DNA of 48,241 nucleotides from a virus (taxonomy: Duplodnaviria > Heunggongvirae > Uroviricota > Caudoviricetes), in IMG/VR virus record IMGVR_UViG_2617270956_000008, positions 1 to 48,241 of that record; one strand, 5' to 3'. Shown piece after piece: positions 3,549 to 5,599 of the stretch. Numbering within the stretch: the first letter of the stretch is position 1; each line of letters starts with the position of its first letter. The notes under the pieces were generated by a model, which worked only from the letters and a program-made list of their open reading frames with translations, searched no databases and was not told where the DNA came from. The translations under genes and the position numbers were made by a program.

Positions 3549-4130
3549 ATGATAGAAAATAAGATACAAACTGAAGTAAAGAAATCAAGAAGAGGTCTCC
3601 CACGTCATACTAAAAACCCATTTCTTAATGATACAAGTCTACATACAAAAACTGGCGTCAGACGTATTACTACAGGAAAAGATCGATTAGCATTAGTTAA
3701 TGAGAGTACGGGAGAACAAGTTGGTAATGGTGGTTTCTTTCAGTCTATGGAAGTAGACAAGACACAGTTTGTGAAGCTTTATGTGGATGGCGTATCAGCT
3801 ATTGAGGGTTTATCCTCATCCGGTAAGAAAGTATTCAAGATACTGTATCTTGCTATCAGAGATAATAAAGATACAGATACGATATTAATGTCATTCGATA
3901 TTGTTGATCAAGATATCGTGAAAATATCAAGAACTACTTATTTCAAAGGTATGAAAGAACTTGCTGACAAGAAATTTATTGCTGAGACCATGATACAGAA
4001 CTATTATTTTATTAATCCAGACTATATGTTTAATGGTGATCGTTTAACTTTCATGAAAACTTATTACTTGAAGGACAAAAAAACTAAAACTAAAGAGAAC
4101 AAAATTAATTGCCAAGGCAAAACACAGTAG
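3549..4130 (+). CDS. RepL-like winged-helix protein (putative replication or regulatory protein), 193 aa
   Basis: ATG with AAAGGAG SD 9 nt upstream. The segment FVKLYVDGVSAIEGLSSSGKKVFKILYLAI...FINPDYMF matches the RepL-type winged-helix pattern from memory. AT-rich (block 3661-3720 about 38 percent GC). Confidence 0.5.
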   Translation: MIENKIQTEVKKSRRGLPRHTKNPFLNDTSLHTKTGVRRITTGKDRLALVNESTGEQVGNGGFFQSMEVDKTQFVKLYVDGVSAIEGLSSSGKKVFKILYLAIRDNKDTDTILMSFDIVDQDIVKISRTTYFKGMKELADKKFIAETMIQNYYFINPDYMFNGDRLTFMKTYYLKDKKTKTKENKINCQGKTQ

Positions 4131-4214
4131 TTTCAAGAAAGAGATTTTCTCAAGCAACTCCTATCTGAATGATAACTCCATAAAGCCAATGCATTTTAAC
4201 AAACTCCCACCCTA

Positions 4215-4946
4215 CTATAAAAATTGTATAGGGTGATTAAAAAATGAAGCGAAATCGAATGAGAAAACGTTTTTTATATACCAGTTTACAAACTCATATC
4301 TTGGAGAGCTGCTTTTTATCATTGCTGACATATCAATTATATTATGTGTTGATCTACGTAGTTCTGATATATAGAGAACAAAATCAACATGTTCATAATG
4401 TGGATTTTCAACAAGAAAATTAAGTTCTGCCATTACATATTCAGATTCATAAGGCATTATCGATTCATTAAGAATAACAAGTCCACCGACTGCTCTAGGA
4501 ATATTTAAAGATTCCTTTGTTGCTCTAATCTGTCTATTGGAGGTTGCTACAAGATCTTTTATATTTCTATAAGCATAATCCATTATCTTTTTTCTGAAAG
4601 CATCTGAGTCGGGGTGTTTTTGAATCAATTCCTCAATATGAACCCTACCGAACCAACTTCTTTTAAGCCATTCATCAGTCTTAGCTAGCTCATTAATTTT
4701 TTCATTTATTAAATCAGTTCTGTCATTTGTGAGTAATTTTTGCTCTAAAATAACATCGTTATTAAATAACAAATAATCTGCCATTTTCGAACTAGAGCCA
4801 TCGTCTTTTTTGAAATCATCCTTCATATCGTCCAATACTATATTATTTTTCTTAGATCGAATAAAATCAAGAAACCTTTTATCTATAGAATCCATCTTTC
4901 CTACCTTCAGTTTTATTTCATCGTCCCGAGCCTGATGATACACCAT
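4215..4946 (-). CDS. hypothetical protein (243 aa)
   Basis: Long ORF in AT-rich DNA, convergent with 3549-4130. Start uncertain (M1, or M18 with an AGGA-type SD). No family recognised. Confidence 0.5.
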   Translation of the reverse strand: MVYHQARDDEIKLKVGKMDSIDKRFLDFIRSKKNNIVLDDMKDDFKKDDGSSSKMADYLLFNNDVILEQKLLTNDRTDLINEKINELAKTDEWLKRSWFGRVHIEELIQKHPDSDAFRKKIMDYAYRNIKDLVATSNRQIRATKESLNIPRAVGGLVILNESIMPYESEYVMAELNFLVENPHYEHVDFVLYISELRRSTHNIIDMSAMIKSSSPRYEFVNWYIKNVFSFDFASFFNHPIQFL

Positions 4947-5119
4947 GTCATTTGTCTCTTACAACATTATTAATGTATTAAGCATGGCCATAATAAACAA
5001 CAAAAAAACATTGGCGAGACAAATCAACAGAAATAAACATTGCTGCAAACGGTTAATTTGACACTTACACCATATCTCGTAATATAAATATATCCACTAT
5101 TTTATCCACGAGGTTTTAT

Positions 5120-5599
5120 ATGAGAAAAGTAAAAACAGACAACAGTGATTTAATCGAATATGTAAATACAGTTAAAGAACTAAAAAATCACATTCCAATA
5201 GAAGAATACAGAAATGAATATCGTAAACTGCGTTCTGATGATATTCCATTGGTTAAGGCGCAAAAATTTAAATCTGCCCATACCGAAGTTCGCAGGTTGG
5301 AAAAAAAGAGAGAATCTCTTATTGAATACTTTATTGACGAGTTAAATCCCATCAGCAGTTCAAAAGCTAACACATCAGCAAGATCAACTGGTAATCTCGA
5401 TTTATTTAACGAACGCGTGTTATACCGTAAGGCCATTTCAGAAAAGAGCGATGAAGAAATAGTAGCCTTGGTCATAAAACAACGTACAGAAGCCGCTGTT
5501 GAGTTCCAACGTTCAATTGAACAGAGTCTTGAGCAACTATCTCGTATCTCGTCAGAGTTCGAACCATCAAACCAAAAGCGCAGGAAAATGTCTCTTTAA
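5120..5599 (+). CDS. hypothetical protein (159 aa)
   Basis: ATG with GAGG SD 7 nt upstream; charged, coiled-coil-like composition; divergent from 4215-4946. Confidence 0.5.
   Translation: MRKVKTDNSDLIEYVNTVKELKNHIPIEEYRNEYRKLRSDDIPLVKAQKFKSAHTEVRRLEKKRESLIEYFIDELNPISSSKANTSARSTGNLDLFNERVLYRKAISEKSDEEIVALVIKQRTEAAVEFQRSIEQSLEQLSRISSEFEPSNQKRRKMSL

What the first reader, a model, noticed from the sequence alone, without database searches (positions are those of the whole stretch)
3549..5599. RepL-like winged-helix gene with two orphan AT-rich genes
The RepL-like protein could mark a plasmid- or satellite-like replicative or regulatory module, and the upstream structured leader may be its cis site. 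The two flanking orphan genes (243 aa and 159 aa) have no recognisable family and lie in a convergent-divergent arrangement.
Basis: inference. Interest (0 to 1): 0.4.

Follow-up and report, generated by a model that had tools for sequence, protein, structure and literature searches.

The report
Plasmid-type RepL replicon inside PAI-serU
The gene is a real RepL-family plasmid replication gene, with its origin-like upstream region, embedded in the well-known tcpC/serU pathogenicity island of uropathogenic E. coli; it is already annotated, its Salmonella counterpart has been studied, and one neighbour is a known DUF family while the other is a predicted nuclease.

Summary
The three ORFs exist as described. 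The window is the right arm of E. coli PAI-serU (the tcpC island of CFT073, 536 and Nissle 1917), which has the gene set of the ROD21-like (EARL) mobilisable islands.

- **RepL, 3549-4130:** it passes Pfam RepL (25.3 bits against a cut-off of 20.3). It is under purifying selection (dN/dS 0.06-0.26). It is 33-70% identical to the Rep gene of 1.6-4.2 kb plasmids.
- **Upstream region, 3255-3548:** these 300 bp are collinear with the region upstream of repL in a 2.17 kb circular plasmid. Shared parts are a conserved AAGAAG box, a pair of 22-bp repeats and AAGT-type repeats. The "cis site" idea is therefore supported.
- **The two "orphans":** neither is an orphan. The 159-aa gene is DUF4756 (E 8e-64). 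The 243-aa gene (probably 226 aa) is a predicted PD-(D/E)XK nuclease in a variable segment.
- **Counter-evidence:** the module is chromosomal in all 507 E. coli genomes that carry it. The window's 22-bp repeat pair is degenerate. Deleting SEN1990, described as near-identical, in Salmonella ROD21 changed neither island copy number nor the amount of excised circle (PMC10655114).

**Verdict:** an already known, correctly annotated gene. It is most likely a conditional island replicon, or else a domesticated regulator. It is not a phage satellite.

The parts
2940..3150 (.). Conserved cluster of five or six hairpins. It includes two copies of a 41-nt unit (2961-3001 and 3099-3139) with the palindrome TGATTGT-N5-ACAATCA. 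Function unknown. One possibility is a single-strand initiation signal; another is a protein-binding site.
   Evidence: Found as repeats. The palindrome occurs only here in the window: 4 matches against 0.23 expected. The ssDNA fold is -32.4 kcal/mol, z -4.8, with 0 of 200 shuffles as stable. It is conserved at the same place in L006-L013, with 49 predicted pairs of which 2 show compensatory changes. It is absent from the more distant island clade. There is no Rfam match.
3258..3296 (+). Conserved box, core AATGAAGAAG at 3274-3283. It is the most conserved non-coding element of RepL replicons and is the candidate origin core.
   Evidence: It is invariant across island relatives whose RepL is only about 60% identical. 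A[ACT]T[TG]AAGAAG with at most 1 mismatch lies upstream on the repL strand in 20 of 23 RepL loci, against 3.45 expected and a maximum of 8 in 200 shuffles. It aligns with the box of the plasmids pST106-2 and L042. The overlapping 12-codon mini-ORF is not conserved in the plasmids (reading).
3316..3359 (+). Two tandem 22-bp units (3316-3337 and 3338-3359). They sit at the position of the iteron pair of RepL plasmids.
   Evidence: Period-22 tandem repeats lie 36-58 nt after the box in 10 plasmid-like loci: 14-19 of 20 identical, with 0-1 of 200 shuffles as good. In the window only 12 of 20 are identical, and 43 of 200 shuffles do as well, so the pair is not significant on its own. Its period and offset match those of L014 (16 of 20). 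Unit 2 is nearly identical to unit 2 of plasmid L042.
3360..3548 (+). AT-rich stretch with AAGT(A/G)T-type repeats, an invariant GACTTTAAGTATTGACT (TTGACT at 3483-3488, possibly a -35 element) and a Shine-Dalgarno AAGGAG at 3535-3540.
   Evidence: Alignments A2 and A7. Repeat families D10-D12. The strict motif ACTTNAAGT is not enriched in the window as a whole. No convincing -10 element was found (direct reading).
3549..4130 (+). repL: RepL-family (PF05732) winged-helix protein, 193 aa. RefSeq WP_000572033.1, 'replication/maintenance protein RepL'.
   Evidence: for family membership. dN/dS is 0.06-0.26. The AF2 core, residues 80-160, is helix-helix-strand-helix-wing, and fold hits are only generic winged-helix proteins.
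4215..4946 (-). Predicted PD-(D/E)XK (restriction-endonuclease-fold) nuclease. It is 243 aa as an ORF and probably 226 aa from 4895. It lies in a variable segment, 4125-5054.
5120..5599 (+). DUF4756 family protein, 159 aa. It lies upstream of the H-NS paralogue and on the same strand.
   Evidence: PF15948 at E 7.7e-64, profile positions 1-158 of 158. It is paired with H-NS in L006, L007, L008 and L041, and on a Klebsiella plasmid.
5759..6163 (+). Full-length H-NS paralogue. The serU island is reported to encode the H-NS homologue Hfp. Context gene.
   Evidence: Pfam Histone_HNS_N plus Histone_HNS. NCBIfam H-NS and StpA hits fall below their cut-offs. Hfp is mentioned in PMC6035254.
9271..9333 (-). 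The 3' 63 nt of tRNA-Ser serU. This is the island's attachment end, cut off by a prophage integrated beyond it. Context feature.
   Evidence: blastn against CFT073 serU gives 99% identity over window 9201-9333. ARAGORN finds no whole tRNA in the window. Other genomes match the window only from 9272 onwards, over prophage genes.

Best explanation
Positions 3255-4130 are a small-plasmid basic replicon embedded in the backbone of PAI-serU, an integrative mobilisable island with the EARL/ROD21-like gene set.

**What is shown**
- repL encodes a RepL-family winged-helix protein.
- The 300 bp upstream carry the same ordered elements as autonomous RepL plasmids. These are a conserved AAGAAG box, a pair of 22-bp repeats about 32 nt downstream, an AT-rich stretch with further AAGT-type repeats, and the repL promoter region.

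**What is inferred**
- RepL binds the repeats, represses its own promoter, and opens or nicks the DNA at or near the box.
- This allows the island circle to replicate when it is outside the chromosome. That could be after integrase/AlpA-driven excision, or after MobQ-mediated transfer into a new cell, and probably only under inducing conditions. SGI1, which replicates only when its helper plasmid is present, is the model.
- The AT-rich region would normally be silenced, which would explain the lack of replication in routine culture.

**The neighbours**
- The neighbouring genes are not part of the replicon.
- The 226/243-aa gene is a cargo nuclease in a variable segment.
- DUF4756 travels with the island's H-NS paralogue.
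For: **Family**
- Pfam RepL is above the gathering score for the window protein.
- The same holds for 9 of 10 relatives scanned, from islands and plasmids.

**Homologues act as plasmid Rep genes**
- 194 plasmid records match.
- Many of the plasmids listed are 1.6-4.2 kb with one to three CDS.
  - pRGI01450 (1,636 bp) has one CDS.
  - pST106-2 (2,708 bp) has two CDS.
  - A Col(MG828)-type plasmid (2,255 bp) has two CDS.
- About 2.7 kb Bacteroides plasmids, the size of pBI143, also match. pBI143 carries only mobA and repA (PMC10055365).
- None of the small plasmids tested has an RNAI-type ColE1 origin.

**Island and plasmid RepLs interleave**
- pST106-2 RepL is 70% identical to island clade 2. 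The two island clades are only 60% identical to each other.

**Shared cis architecture**
- The box is present in 20 of 23 loci, against 3.45 expected.
- The period-22 repeat pair sits at a fixed offset.
- pST106-2 shares the box and AACTGTCAGG repeats with island clade 2.
- L042 is a 2,172-bp circle, with 1627 of 1628 bases identical at that period. It encodes a RepL 66% identical to the window's.
- Its upstream 300 bp are collinear with window 3255-3548.

**Selection**
- dN/dS is 0.06-0.10 at dS 0.3-0.9.
- The upstream region stays conserved at that divergence.

**Context**
- The island has an integrase, AlpA, a MobQ relaxase, TraD and flanking tRNA-derived repeats.
- ROD21, the type EARL island, excises and is mobilised (PMC6035254).
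- SGI1 is a precedent for helper-dependent replication of a mobilisable island (PMC7433901, PMC7826253).
Against: **The direct experiment on the counterpart gene**
- In Salmonella ROD21, deleting SEN1990 changed neither island copies per chromosome (ratio 1) nor the relative amount of attP. The paper calls the E. coli homologues almost identical to SEN1990.
- The wild-type island itself showed no copy number above 1.
- RNA-seq pointed instead to a regulatory effect on oafB (PMC10655114).
- The authors note that excision was only 3% and that replication after conjugation was not tested.

- The module is chromosomal at all 532 places in 507 complete E. coli genomes, and never on a plasmid.
- In the window the two 22-bp units match at only 12 of 20 positions, no better than 43 of 200 shuffles. 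Autonomous plasmids score 14-19 of 20. This fits relaxed origin function.
- The RepL model is of modest confidence (pLDDT 60.6) and resembles only generic winged-helix regulators.
- No catalytic motif for nicking was identified, and DnaA boxes are not enriched.
Confidence: 0.5

Rival explanations
1. Domesticated regulator. The module descends from a plasmid replicon but no longer replicates anything. RepL now acts as a winged-helix transcription factor, autoregulating through the upstream repeats and acting on island or host genes. The conserved upstream DNA is its operator and promoter.
For: - Deleting SEN1990 had no effect on ROD21 copy number or on excised circles.
- It lowered oafB expression, which complementation restored, and it reduced organ colonisation in mice (PMC10655114).
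- The 22-bp repeat pair in the window is degenerate.
- The module is always chromosomal.
- Fold matches are to transcription regulators of the CRP/FNR, CodY, Zur and IclR types.
Against: - The box is the element most conserved between distant plasmids. It stays invariant in islands across genera at dS of about 0.8. A pure operator for a diverging protein would be expected to drift with it.
- Plasmid and island RepLs interleave, which implies recent exchange of working replicons.
- Only one regulated gene was found in Salmonella, and oafB/SPI-17 is not a general partner of these islands.
- The negative replication assay had low sensitivity (3% excision) and used one condition.
Confidence: 0.35
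2. Plasmid interference or incompatibility module. A chromosomal copy of RepL plus its binding sites titrates or handcuffs incoming RepL-type small plasmids. Alternatively it supplies Rep in trans to them.
For: RepL-type small plasmids are common in the same hosts: 56 Escherichia plasmid records match. The island keeps both the protein and its sites under selection.
Against: - The common E. coli RepL plasmids, of the Col(MG828) type, are only 34% identical to the island RepL and have different repeats, so cross-recognition is unlikely.
- There is no direct evidence. This is pure inference.
Confidence: 0.06
3. Replication module of a phage satellite (P4-like or PICI-like) that is induced by the neighbouring prophage.
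For: The island has a tyrosine integrase that PMC6035254 classes as P4-like, and an AlpA-family gene. In this strain a prophage lies directly next to the island at serU.
Against: - tblastn of RepL against 50,697 phage records finds nothing.
- No capsid-redirection, packaging or primase-helicase genes are annotated on the island.
- It carries a relaxase, TraD and pilus genes instead.
- In CFT073 the same island has no adjacent prophage.
- PADLOC and PHROG give no satellite or functional hit.
Confidence: 0.03
4. Inert remnant of an integrated small plasmid, decaying without function.
For: The island is degenerate, with frameshifted genes at 2367-2637 and elsewhere, and it has no type IV secretion system. 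Truncated RepL variants exist in some genomes.
Against: - dN/dS is 0.06-0.26 across genera.
- The gene is annotated as an intact CDS in every listed row that covers it.
- The non-coding region is conserved.
- Deleting SEN1990 in Salmonella has a phenotype (PMC10655114).
Confidence: 0.03

Closest known systems
SEN1990 of Salmonella Enteritidis island ROD21 (EARL family); PMC10655114
   Same: - It has the same position in the same kind of island, with a long non-coding region upstream.
- RefSeq annotates it as RepL, and it is a predicted three-stranded winged helix.
- The paper states that the E. coli homologues are almost identical to it.
- 90%-identity clusters built on close relatives of the window protein hold Salmonella members. 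One such cluster is that of P0002, 94% identical to the window protein.
   Different: - I could not fetch SEN1990 itself, so orthology rests on the paper's statement and on the cluster content.
- The paper compared it only with Firmicute RepL (below 19% identity) and doubted family membership.
- Here, Proteobacterial RepL plasmids at 33-70% identity, with a shared upstream architecture, tie it firmly to replicons.
RepL (PF05732) replicons of small plasmids: pSN2 family in staphylococci, pBI143-size Bacteroides plasmids, Col(MG828)-type and pST106-2-type enterobacterial plasmids
   Same: - A small winged-helix protein of about 20 kDa.
- The Pfam match is above threshold.
- The same box, 22-bp repeats and repL order.
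- RepL is 66-70% identical to the closest plasmid homologues.
   Different: - It is integrated in a 22-kb chromosomal island and never seen as a plasmid.
- Its repeat pair is degenerate.
- It has an extra conserved hairpin cluster upstream.
- The replication mode of the family is itself unsettled. pSN2 is classed as rolling-circle (PMC5703833). A 2026 preprint lists it among its winged-helix initiators (10.1101/2024.09.03.610885).
SGI1 replication module (S004-repA/oriV), a mobilisable island that replicates only with an IncC helper; PMC7433901, PMC7826253
   Same: A plasmid-type Rep and origin inside an integrative mobilisable island. Replication is silent unless induced.
   Different: - The Rep is an unrelated protein family.
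- Helper dependence is shown for SGI1 and is only hypothesised here.
- PAI-serU has no known helper signal.
PD-(D/E)XK restriction-endonuclease-fold nucleases (BsmI, N.BspD6I, NucC, CdiA-CT toxins), for the 243-aa gene
   Different: - No Pfam, PADLOC or NCBIfam family matches significantly.
- Foldseek against the PDB is not significant.
- No methylase or sensor partner lies next to it.
- Helical inserts attract unrelated dehydrogenase hits.

Membership tests
RepL (Pfam PF05732) plasmid replication proteins | Match to the family profile above the curated gathering score | tested here: met
   25.3 bits against a cut-off of 20.3, E 1.2e-5, profile positions 10-127 of 164. Relatives score 20.9-40.5 bits. 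No NCBIfam model matched.
RepL (Pfam PF05732) plasmid replication proteins | Small protein of about 18-22 kDa built around one winged helix-turn-helix | tested here: met
   193 aa. The AF2 core has H71-83, H90-105, H128-140 and a beta hairpin at 144-155. Foldseek hits are only generic winged-helix domains, E >= 0.02. Model confidence is modest (pLDDT 60.6).
RepL (Pfam PF05732) plasmid replication proteins | Encoded on, and the replication gene of, a small autonomous plasmid | tested here: not met
   Homologues meet this. This gene does not: all 532 places in 507 E. coli genomes are chromosomal.
RepL (Pfam PF05732) plasmid replication proteins | Cognate origin next to the gene (conserved box plus repeats) | tested here: inconclusive
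   The box is present and conserved. The whole upstream region is collinear with plasmid L042. The 22-bp pair in the window scores only 12 of 20, and 43 of 200 shuffles do as well. No origin of this family has been mapped experimentally in the papers I could read.
RepL (Pfam PF05732) plasmid replication proteins | Replication initiation activity | not testable with these tools
   The only experiment is on SEN1990 and was negative for copy number and attP amount, at 3% excision (PMC10655114).
EARL (ROD21-like) integrative mobilisable islands / PAI-serU | P4-like tyrosine integrase and an AlpA-type directionality factor near opposite ends | tested here: met
   The integrase lies next to zinT (L002 23722-24942). 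AlpA is at window 7722-8012, PF05930 E 2e-18.
EARL (ROD21-like) integrative mobilisable islands / PAI-serU | Insertion at a tRNA gene with flanking direct repeats | tested here: met
   The serU 3' part is at window 9271-9333. A 14-nt copy of the tRNA 3' end lies at the far end, L002 25107-25120 (short-word E 0.016, at the expected place). In CFT073 the island abuts intact serU.
EARL (ROD21-like) integrative mobilisable islands / PAI-serU | MobA/MobL (MOBQ) relaxase, TraD homologue, type IV pilin and PilV, H-NS paralogues, and no type IV secretion system | tested here: met
   Annotation of CFT073 and THO-006. The family definition is in PMC6035254. That paper's text does not name CFT073; it does mention the serU island's Hfp.
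Phage satellites (P4-like, PICI) | Phage-related replication, packaging or capsid-redirection genes, with relatives in phage records | tested here: not met
   There is no match in 50,697 phage records. PHROG hits are only to families of unknown function. The island carries conjugation-related genes instead.
PD-(D/E)XK nuclease superfamily (243-aa gene) | Catalytic D...(D/E)xK motif on the core beta strands | tested here: met
   E67 and K69 are invariant and D56 is at least 90% conserved in 79 sequences. All three are invariant in the 29-sequence set. They fall at strands 57-59 and 64-71 of a pLDDT 93 model.
PD-(D/E)XK nuclease superfamily (243-aa gene) | Significant profile or fold match to a member family | tested here: inconclusive
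DUF4756 (PF15948) (159-aa gene) | Full-length profile match above cut-off | tested here: met
   214.9 bits against a cut-off of 25, profile positions 1-158 of 158.

The most novel reading that the evidence does not exclude
EARL/PAI-serU islands are replicative mobilisable elements. Their RepL, box and 22-bp-repeat module would be a silent plasmid replicon that fires only after excision under inducing conditions or on entry into a new host. The conserved hairpin cluster at 2940-3150 would serve as the signal for second-strand synthesis. If so, the published negative result for SEN1990 would reflect assay conditions. A widespread virulence island of ExPEC, Salmonella and plant pathogens would then have a plasmid-like life stage.
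Probability: 0.35. Interest if true: 0.5.

Novelty: already known. Interest (0 to 1): 0.28.

Why it matters
- PAI-serU carries tcpC and sits in many uropathogenic strains and in the probiotic Nissle 1917. The repL module is present in 507 of 5,426 complete E. coli genomes.
- The literature I read calls the island immobile (PMC5521745). It also doubts that its RepL-like gene belongs to the RepL family (PMC10655114).
- The comparison made here ties the gene and its upstream DNA to working small-plasmid replicons.
- This gives a concrete, cheap experiment to decide whether islands of this family can replicate outside the chromosome. The answer bears on how stably they are kept and how they spread.
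- As a scan finding it is ordinary: a correctly annotated gene in a known island.

Tried and rejected
**Searches that found nothing useful**
- Rfam at E <= 1 over 1-10000 found nothing upstream of repL. The only hits were tRNA-fragment artefacts near 9275-9326.
- PADLOC gave no meaningful hit. The best was Cas8a at E 2e-4 for the 243-aa protein, which I regard as chance.
- NCBIfam gave nothing for the three genes.
- The phage collection had no RepL match.
- A PDB sequence search with the RepL profile gave nothing. The same search with the nuclease profile also gave nothing.
- Foldseek against the PDB was not significant for either model.
- The word-index protein search for the 243-aa protein found only close relatives. 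The exhaustive HMMER search was needed.

**Motifs and structures that did not hold up**
- DnaA boxes are not enriched: 51 matches against 44 expected. Only one-mismatch boxes occur, at 3031 and 3267.
- The palindromic motif ACTTNAAGT is not enriched window-wide: 15 matches against 19 expected. I dropped it as a statistical argument and relied on cross-locus conservation.
- The apparent hairpin at 3322-3362 is not more stable than shuffles as RNA, z -0.96. I reinterpreted it as two tandem 22-bp units.
- The consensus promoter scan is at chance level, 20 sites against 17 expected.
- The mini-ORF MKKKNALKPAIA over the box was rejected as a leader peptide, because its ATG is absent in the plasmids.

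**Hypotheses rejected**
- ColE1-type replication of the small RepL plasmids: no RNAI was found.
- A second RepL gene in the window: none.
- The "plasmid" CP088875.1 as evidence of plasmid carriage: it is a chromosomal segment.
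Full report
**1. What the window is**

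Window 3000-6200 is 100% identical to the chromosomes of E. coli CFT073, Nissle 1917, ATCC 25922 and others. RefSeq names the genes there hypothetical protein, "replication/maintenance protein RepL", DUF4756 family protein and H-NS family protein.

In CFT073 the stretch lies in a 22-kb island next to tRNA-Ser serU. The yersiniabactin island lies beyond it. The literature calls this island PAI-CFT073-serU, or PAI VII of strain 536. It carries tcpC (PMC7545054, PMC5521745).

The window itself matches strain THO-006 over its first 25 kb. In that strain the island runs from a tyrosine integrase next to zinT to a DUF6387 gene. In order it carries:
- PilV and a type IV pilin
- TraD and a MobQ relaxase
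- TcpC, a TIR protein and a macro-domain protein
- a ComEA-like protein
- RepL and DUF4756
- an H-NS paralogue and a truncated H-NS
- AlpA

Window 9271-9333 holds the 3' 63 nt of serU, cut off by a prophage that fills the next stretch of the window (checked to 25 kb). A 14-nt copy of the tRNA 3' end lies at the integrase end.

This gene set matches the "EARL" family of ROD21-like islands, described as excisable and mobilisable (PMC6035254).

**2. Checking the observation**

The three ORFs and their convergent-then-divergent layout are as stated. The region is AT-rich.

The 193-aa protein passes Pfam RepL: 25.3 bits against a cut-off of 20.3.

The claim that the two neighbours have no recognisable family does not hold.
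- The 159-aa protein is a full-length DUF4756, E 7.7e-64.
- The 243-aa protein has no Pfam hit. An exhaustive HMMER search nevertheless finds 276 representative clusters.
  - E67 and K69 are invariant across 79 homologues, and D56 is at least 90% conserved. All three are invariant in the smaller 29-sequence set.
  - A pLDDT 93 model places these residues on adjacent strands.
  - Foldseek was not significant.
- I therefore read the 243-aa protein as a predicted PD-(D/E)XK nuclease of unknown role.
- Homologue alignments and RefSeq both start it at M18, giving 226 aa.
- It sits in a segment, 4125-5054, that is replaced by 70 bp in a variant of the same island. The same gene follows repL in a Brenneria island.

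**3. The RepL gene is a real family member and is kept by selection**

tblastn finds homologues on 194 plasmid records and none in phages. Many of the plasmids listed are tiny.
- pRGI01450: 1,636 bp, one CDS.
- A Col(MG828)-type plasmid: 2,255 bp, two CDS.
- pST106-2: 2,708 bp, two CDS.
- Others from Vibrio, Pseudoalteromonas and Klebsiella.
- About 2.7-kb Bacteroides plasmids, the size of pBI143. pBI143 carries only mobA and repA (PMC10055365).

Nine of ten island and plasmid relatives scanned pass the Pfam threshold. The exception is a RepL2 paralogue. The small plasmids have no RNAI, so they are not ColE1-type.

Related islands occur in Klebsiella, Citrobacter, Enterobacter, Cedecea, Pluralibacter, Brenneria, Pectobacterium and others. 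Most share the order MobQ ... lipoprotein ... RepL ... (DUF4756/H-NS) ... AlpA-DUF6387.

Against these relatives, repL has dN/dS of 0.06-0.10 at dS 0.3-0.9.

Plasmid and island proteins interleave. pST106-2 RepL is 70% identical to one island clade, while the two island clades are 60% identical to each other.

The structure model is modest (pLDDT 60.6). It shows a winged helix that resembles only generic regulators.

**4. The cis site**

The upstream region has two parts.

*(a) Positions 3255-3548.*
- A block around AATGAAGAAG (3274-3283) is invariant in all island relatives, even where RepL is only about 60% identical.
- The same box lies upstream on the repL strand in 20 of 23 RepL loci, including distant plasmid-like contigs. 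Shuffles give 3.45 on average.
- In ten plasmid-like loci, two tandem 22-bp repeats follow the box after 36-58 nt. They are 14-19 of 20 identical, and 0-1 of 200 shuffles do as well.
- The island relatives have a period-22 pair (period 21 in L010) at the same offset, but a weaker one. L014 scores 16 of 20. The window scores 12 of 20, which is not significant alone.
- pST106-2 shares the box and AACTGTCAGG repeats with island clade 2.
- Most directly, a metagenomic contig proves to be more than one unit of a 2,172-bp circle.
  - It encodes a RepL 66% identical to the window's, plus a small tyrosine recombinase.
  - Its 300 bp upstream of repL align end to end with window 3255-3548.
  - Shared parts are the box, repeat unit 2, TGATAA..ATTCTCA and GACTTTAAGTATTGACT.

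*(b) Positions 2940-3150.*
- This is a cluster of hairpins that includes a duplicated 41-nt unit.
- It is far more stable than shuffles (z -4.8).
- It is conserved in place in the close relatives, with two compensatory pairs.
- Its role is open.

**5. How it most likely works, and the counter-evidence**

The anatomy is that of a small-plasmid basic replicon. The inferred mechanism has three steps:
- RepL binds the repeats.
- It represses its own promoter.
- It starts replication at or near the box, so that the excised or transferred island circle can be copied.

SGI1 is a precedent for a mobilisable island whose replicon fires only with a helper plasmid (PMC7433901, PMC7826253).

Three things weigh against this.
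- **The Salmonella experiment.**
  - In ROD21, deleting SEN1990 changed neither island copies per chromosome nor the amount of attP. The paper says its E. coli homologues are almost identical.
  - The wild-type island was single-copy.
  - The gene instead affected oafB expression and virulence (PMC10655114).
  - Excision was 3%, and replication after transfer was not tested.
- **Location.** In E. coli the module is always chromosomal.
- **Repeat pair.** The window's repeat pair is degenerate.

I therefore give about 0.5 to a conditional replicon and 0.35 to a domesticated regulator. Small weights go to plasmid interference, a satellite module and an inert remnant.

**6. Comparison with what is known, and verdict**

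The gene is annotated as RepL in RefSeq, and its Salmonella counterpart has a dedicated paper. The island is a textbook ExPEC island. The finding is therefore already known.

Two things are added here. The first is the link to Proteobacterial and Bacteroides RepL plasmids. The second is the shared upstream architecture. The 2023 study compared only Firmicute proteins and so doubted family membership.

Whether the family replicates by rolling circle or theta mode is unsettled in the papers I read (PMC5703833; 10.1101/2024.09.03.610885). I could not tell from sequence.

Interest is low to moderate.

Noticed in passing
L010 7582-8382, L012 7895-8701, L013 3514-4374, L014-L016 about 7960-8680 (all minus strand); absent from the window: Several related islands carry a second, divergently oriented RepL paralogue (29-32% identical to the window RepL, some with a C-terminal extension) about 1.3-1.6 kb upstream of repL. 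The window has only one RepL gene. It keeps a frameshifted remnant of the gene that lies downstream of the paralogue in L010.
   Followed up: partly
window 2940-3150: A conserved cluster of hairpins with a duplicated 41-nt unit (palindrome TGATTGT-N5-ACAATCA). As ssDNA it folds at z -4.8, and two pairs show compensatory changes among relatives. There is no Rfam match and the function is unknown. A weaker copy of the first two hairpins lies upstream of the MobQ gene in L011 (81% over 63 nt).
   Followed up: partly
L042 (JGI 3300005311 contig Ga0074300_1000100), 1-3800: The contig is about 1.75 units of a 2,172-bp circular plasmid that encodes only a RepL (66% identical to the window's) and a 247-aa tyrosine recombinase. 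It is the closest autonomous relative of the island module that I found.
   Followed up: yes
window 2367-2637 (minus strand): RefSeq annotates a frameshifted hypothetical gene here. The variant island in L006 has an intact 128-aa gene in a comparable position (13342-13728); I did not test whether it is the same gene.
   Followed up: no
window 9271-9333 and onwards: serU is split. Only its 3' 63 nt remain next to the island, and a prophage with tail sheath, tape measure and baseplate genes follows, so island and prophage sit in tandem at one tRNA. CFT073 has the intact tRNA and no prophage there.
   Followed up: partly
CP088875.1 (L006, L035): This 393-kb record, filed as an E. coli plasmid, carries the fli operon, zinT, dcm/vsr, a serU-type island and the yersiniabactin island in chromosomal order. 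It looks like a chromosome segment filed as a plasmid. Its island variant keeps a DotA/TraY gene.
   Followed up: partly
window 5759-6163 (+) and 6686-6973 (-): There is a full-length H-NS paralogue and a truncated protein with only the H-NS N-terminal domain. Both kinds of gene are reported for EARL islands, and the serU island is reported to encode the H-NS homologue Hfp. DUF4756 and H-NS also occur as a pair on a Klebsiella plasmid (CP110748.1).
   Followed up: partly
window 3276-3314: A 12-codon mini-ORF (MKKKNALKPAIA) overlaps the conserved box. Its ATG is kept in island relatives but absent in plasmids, so the conservation is at the DNA level, not the peptide level.
   Followed up: yes
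L004 about 300-250 nt upstream of repL; L028 likewise: The GC-rich DNA upstream of the box in the Col(MG828)-type plasmid contains GGCGAGGAAGCGGAAGAG. From memory, this resembles the region downstream of the ColE1/pMB1 origin that holds primosome assembly sites. I did not test this.
   Followed up: no
window 1234-2196 (minus strand) and 1-1182 (minus strand): A 320-aa protein has no family in Pfam, NCBIfam, PHROG or PADLOC. It lies next to a protein that RefSeq annotates as ComEA-family. Both are island cargo outside the finding.
   Followed up: no
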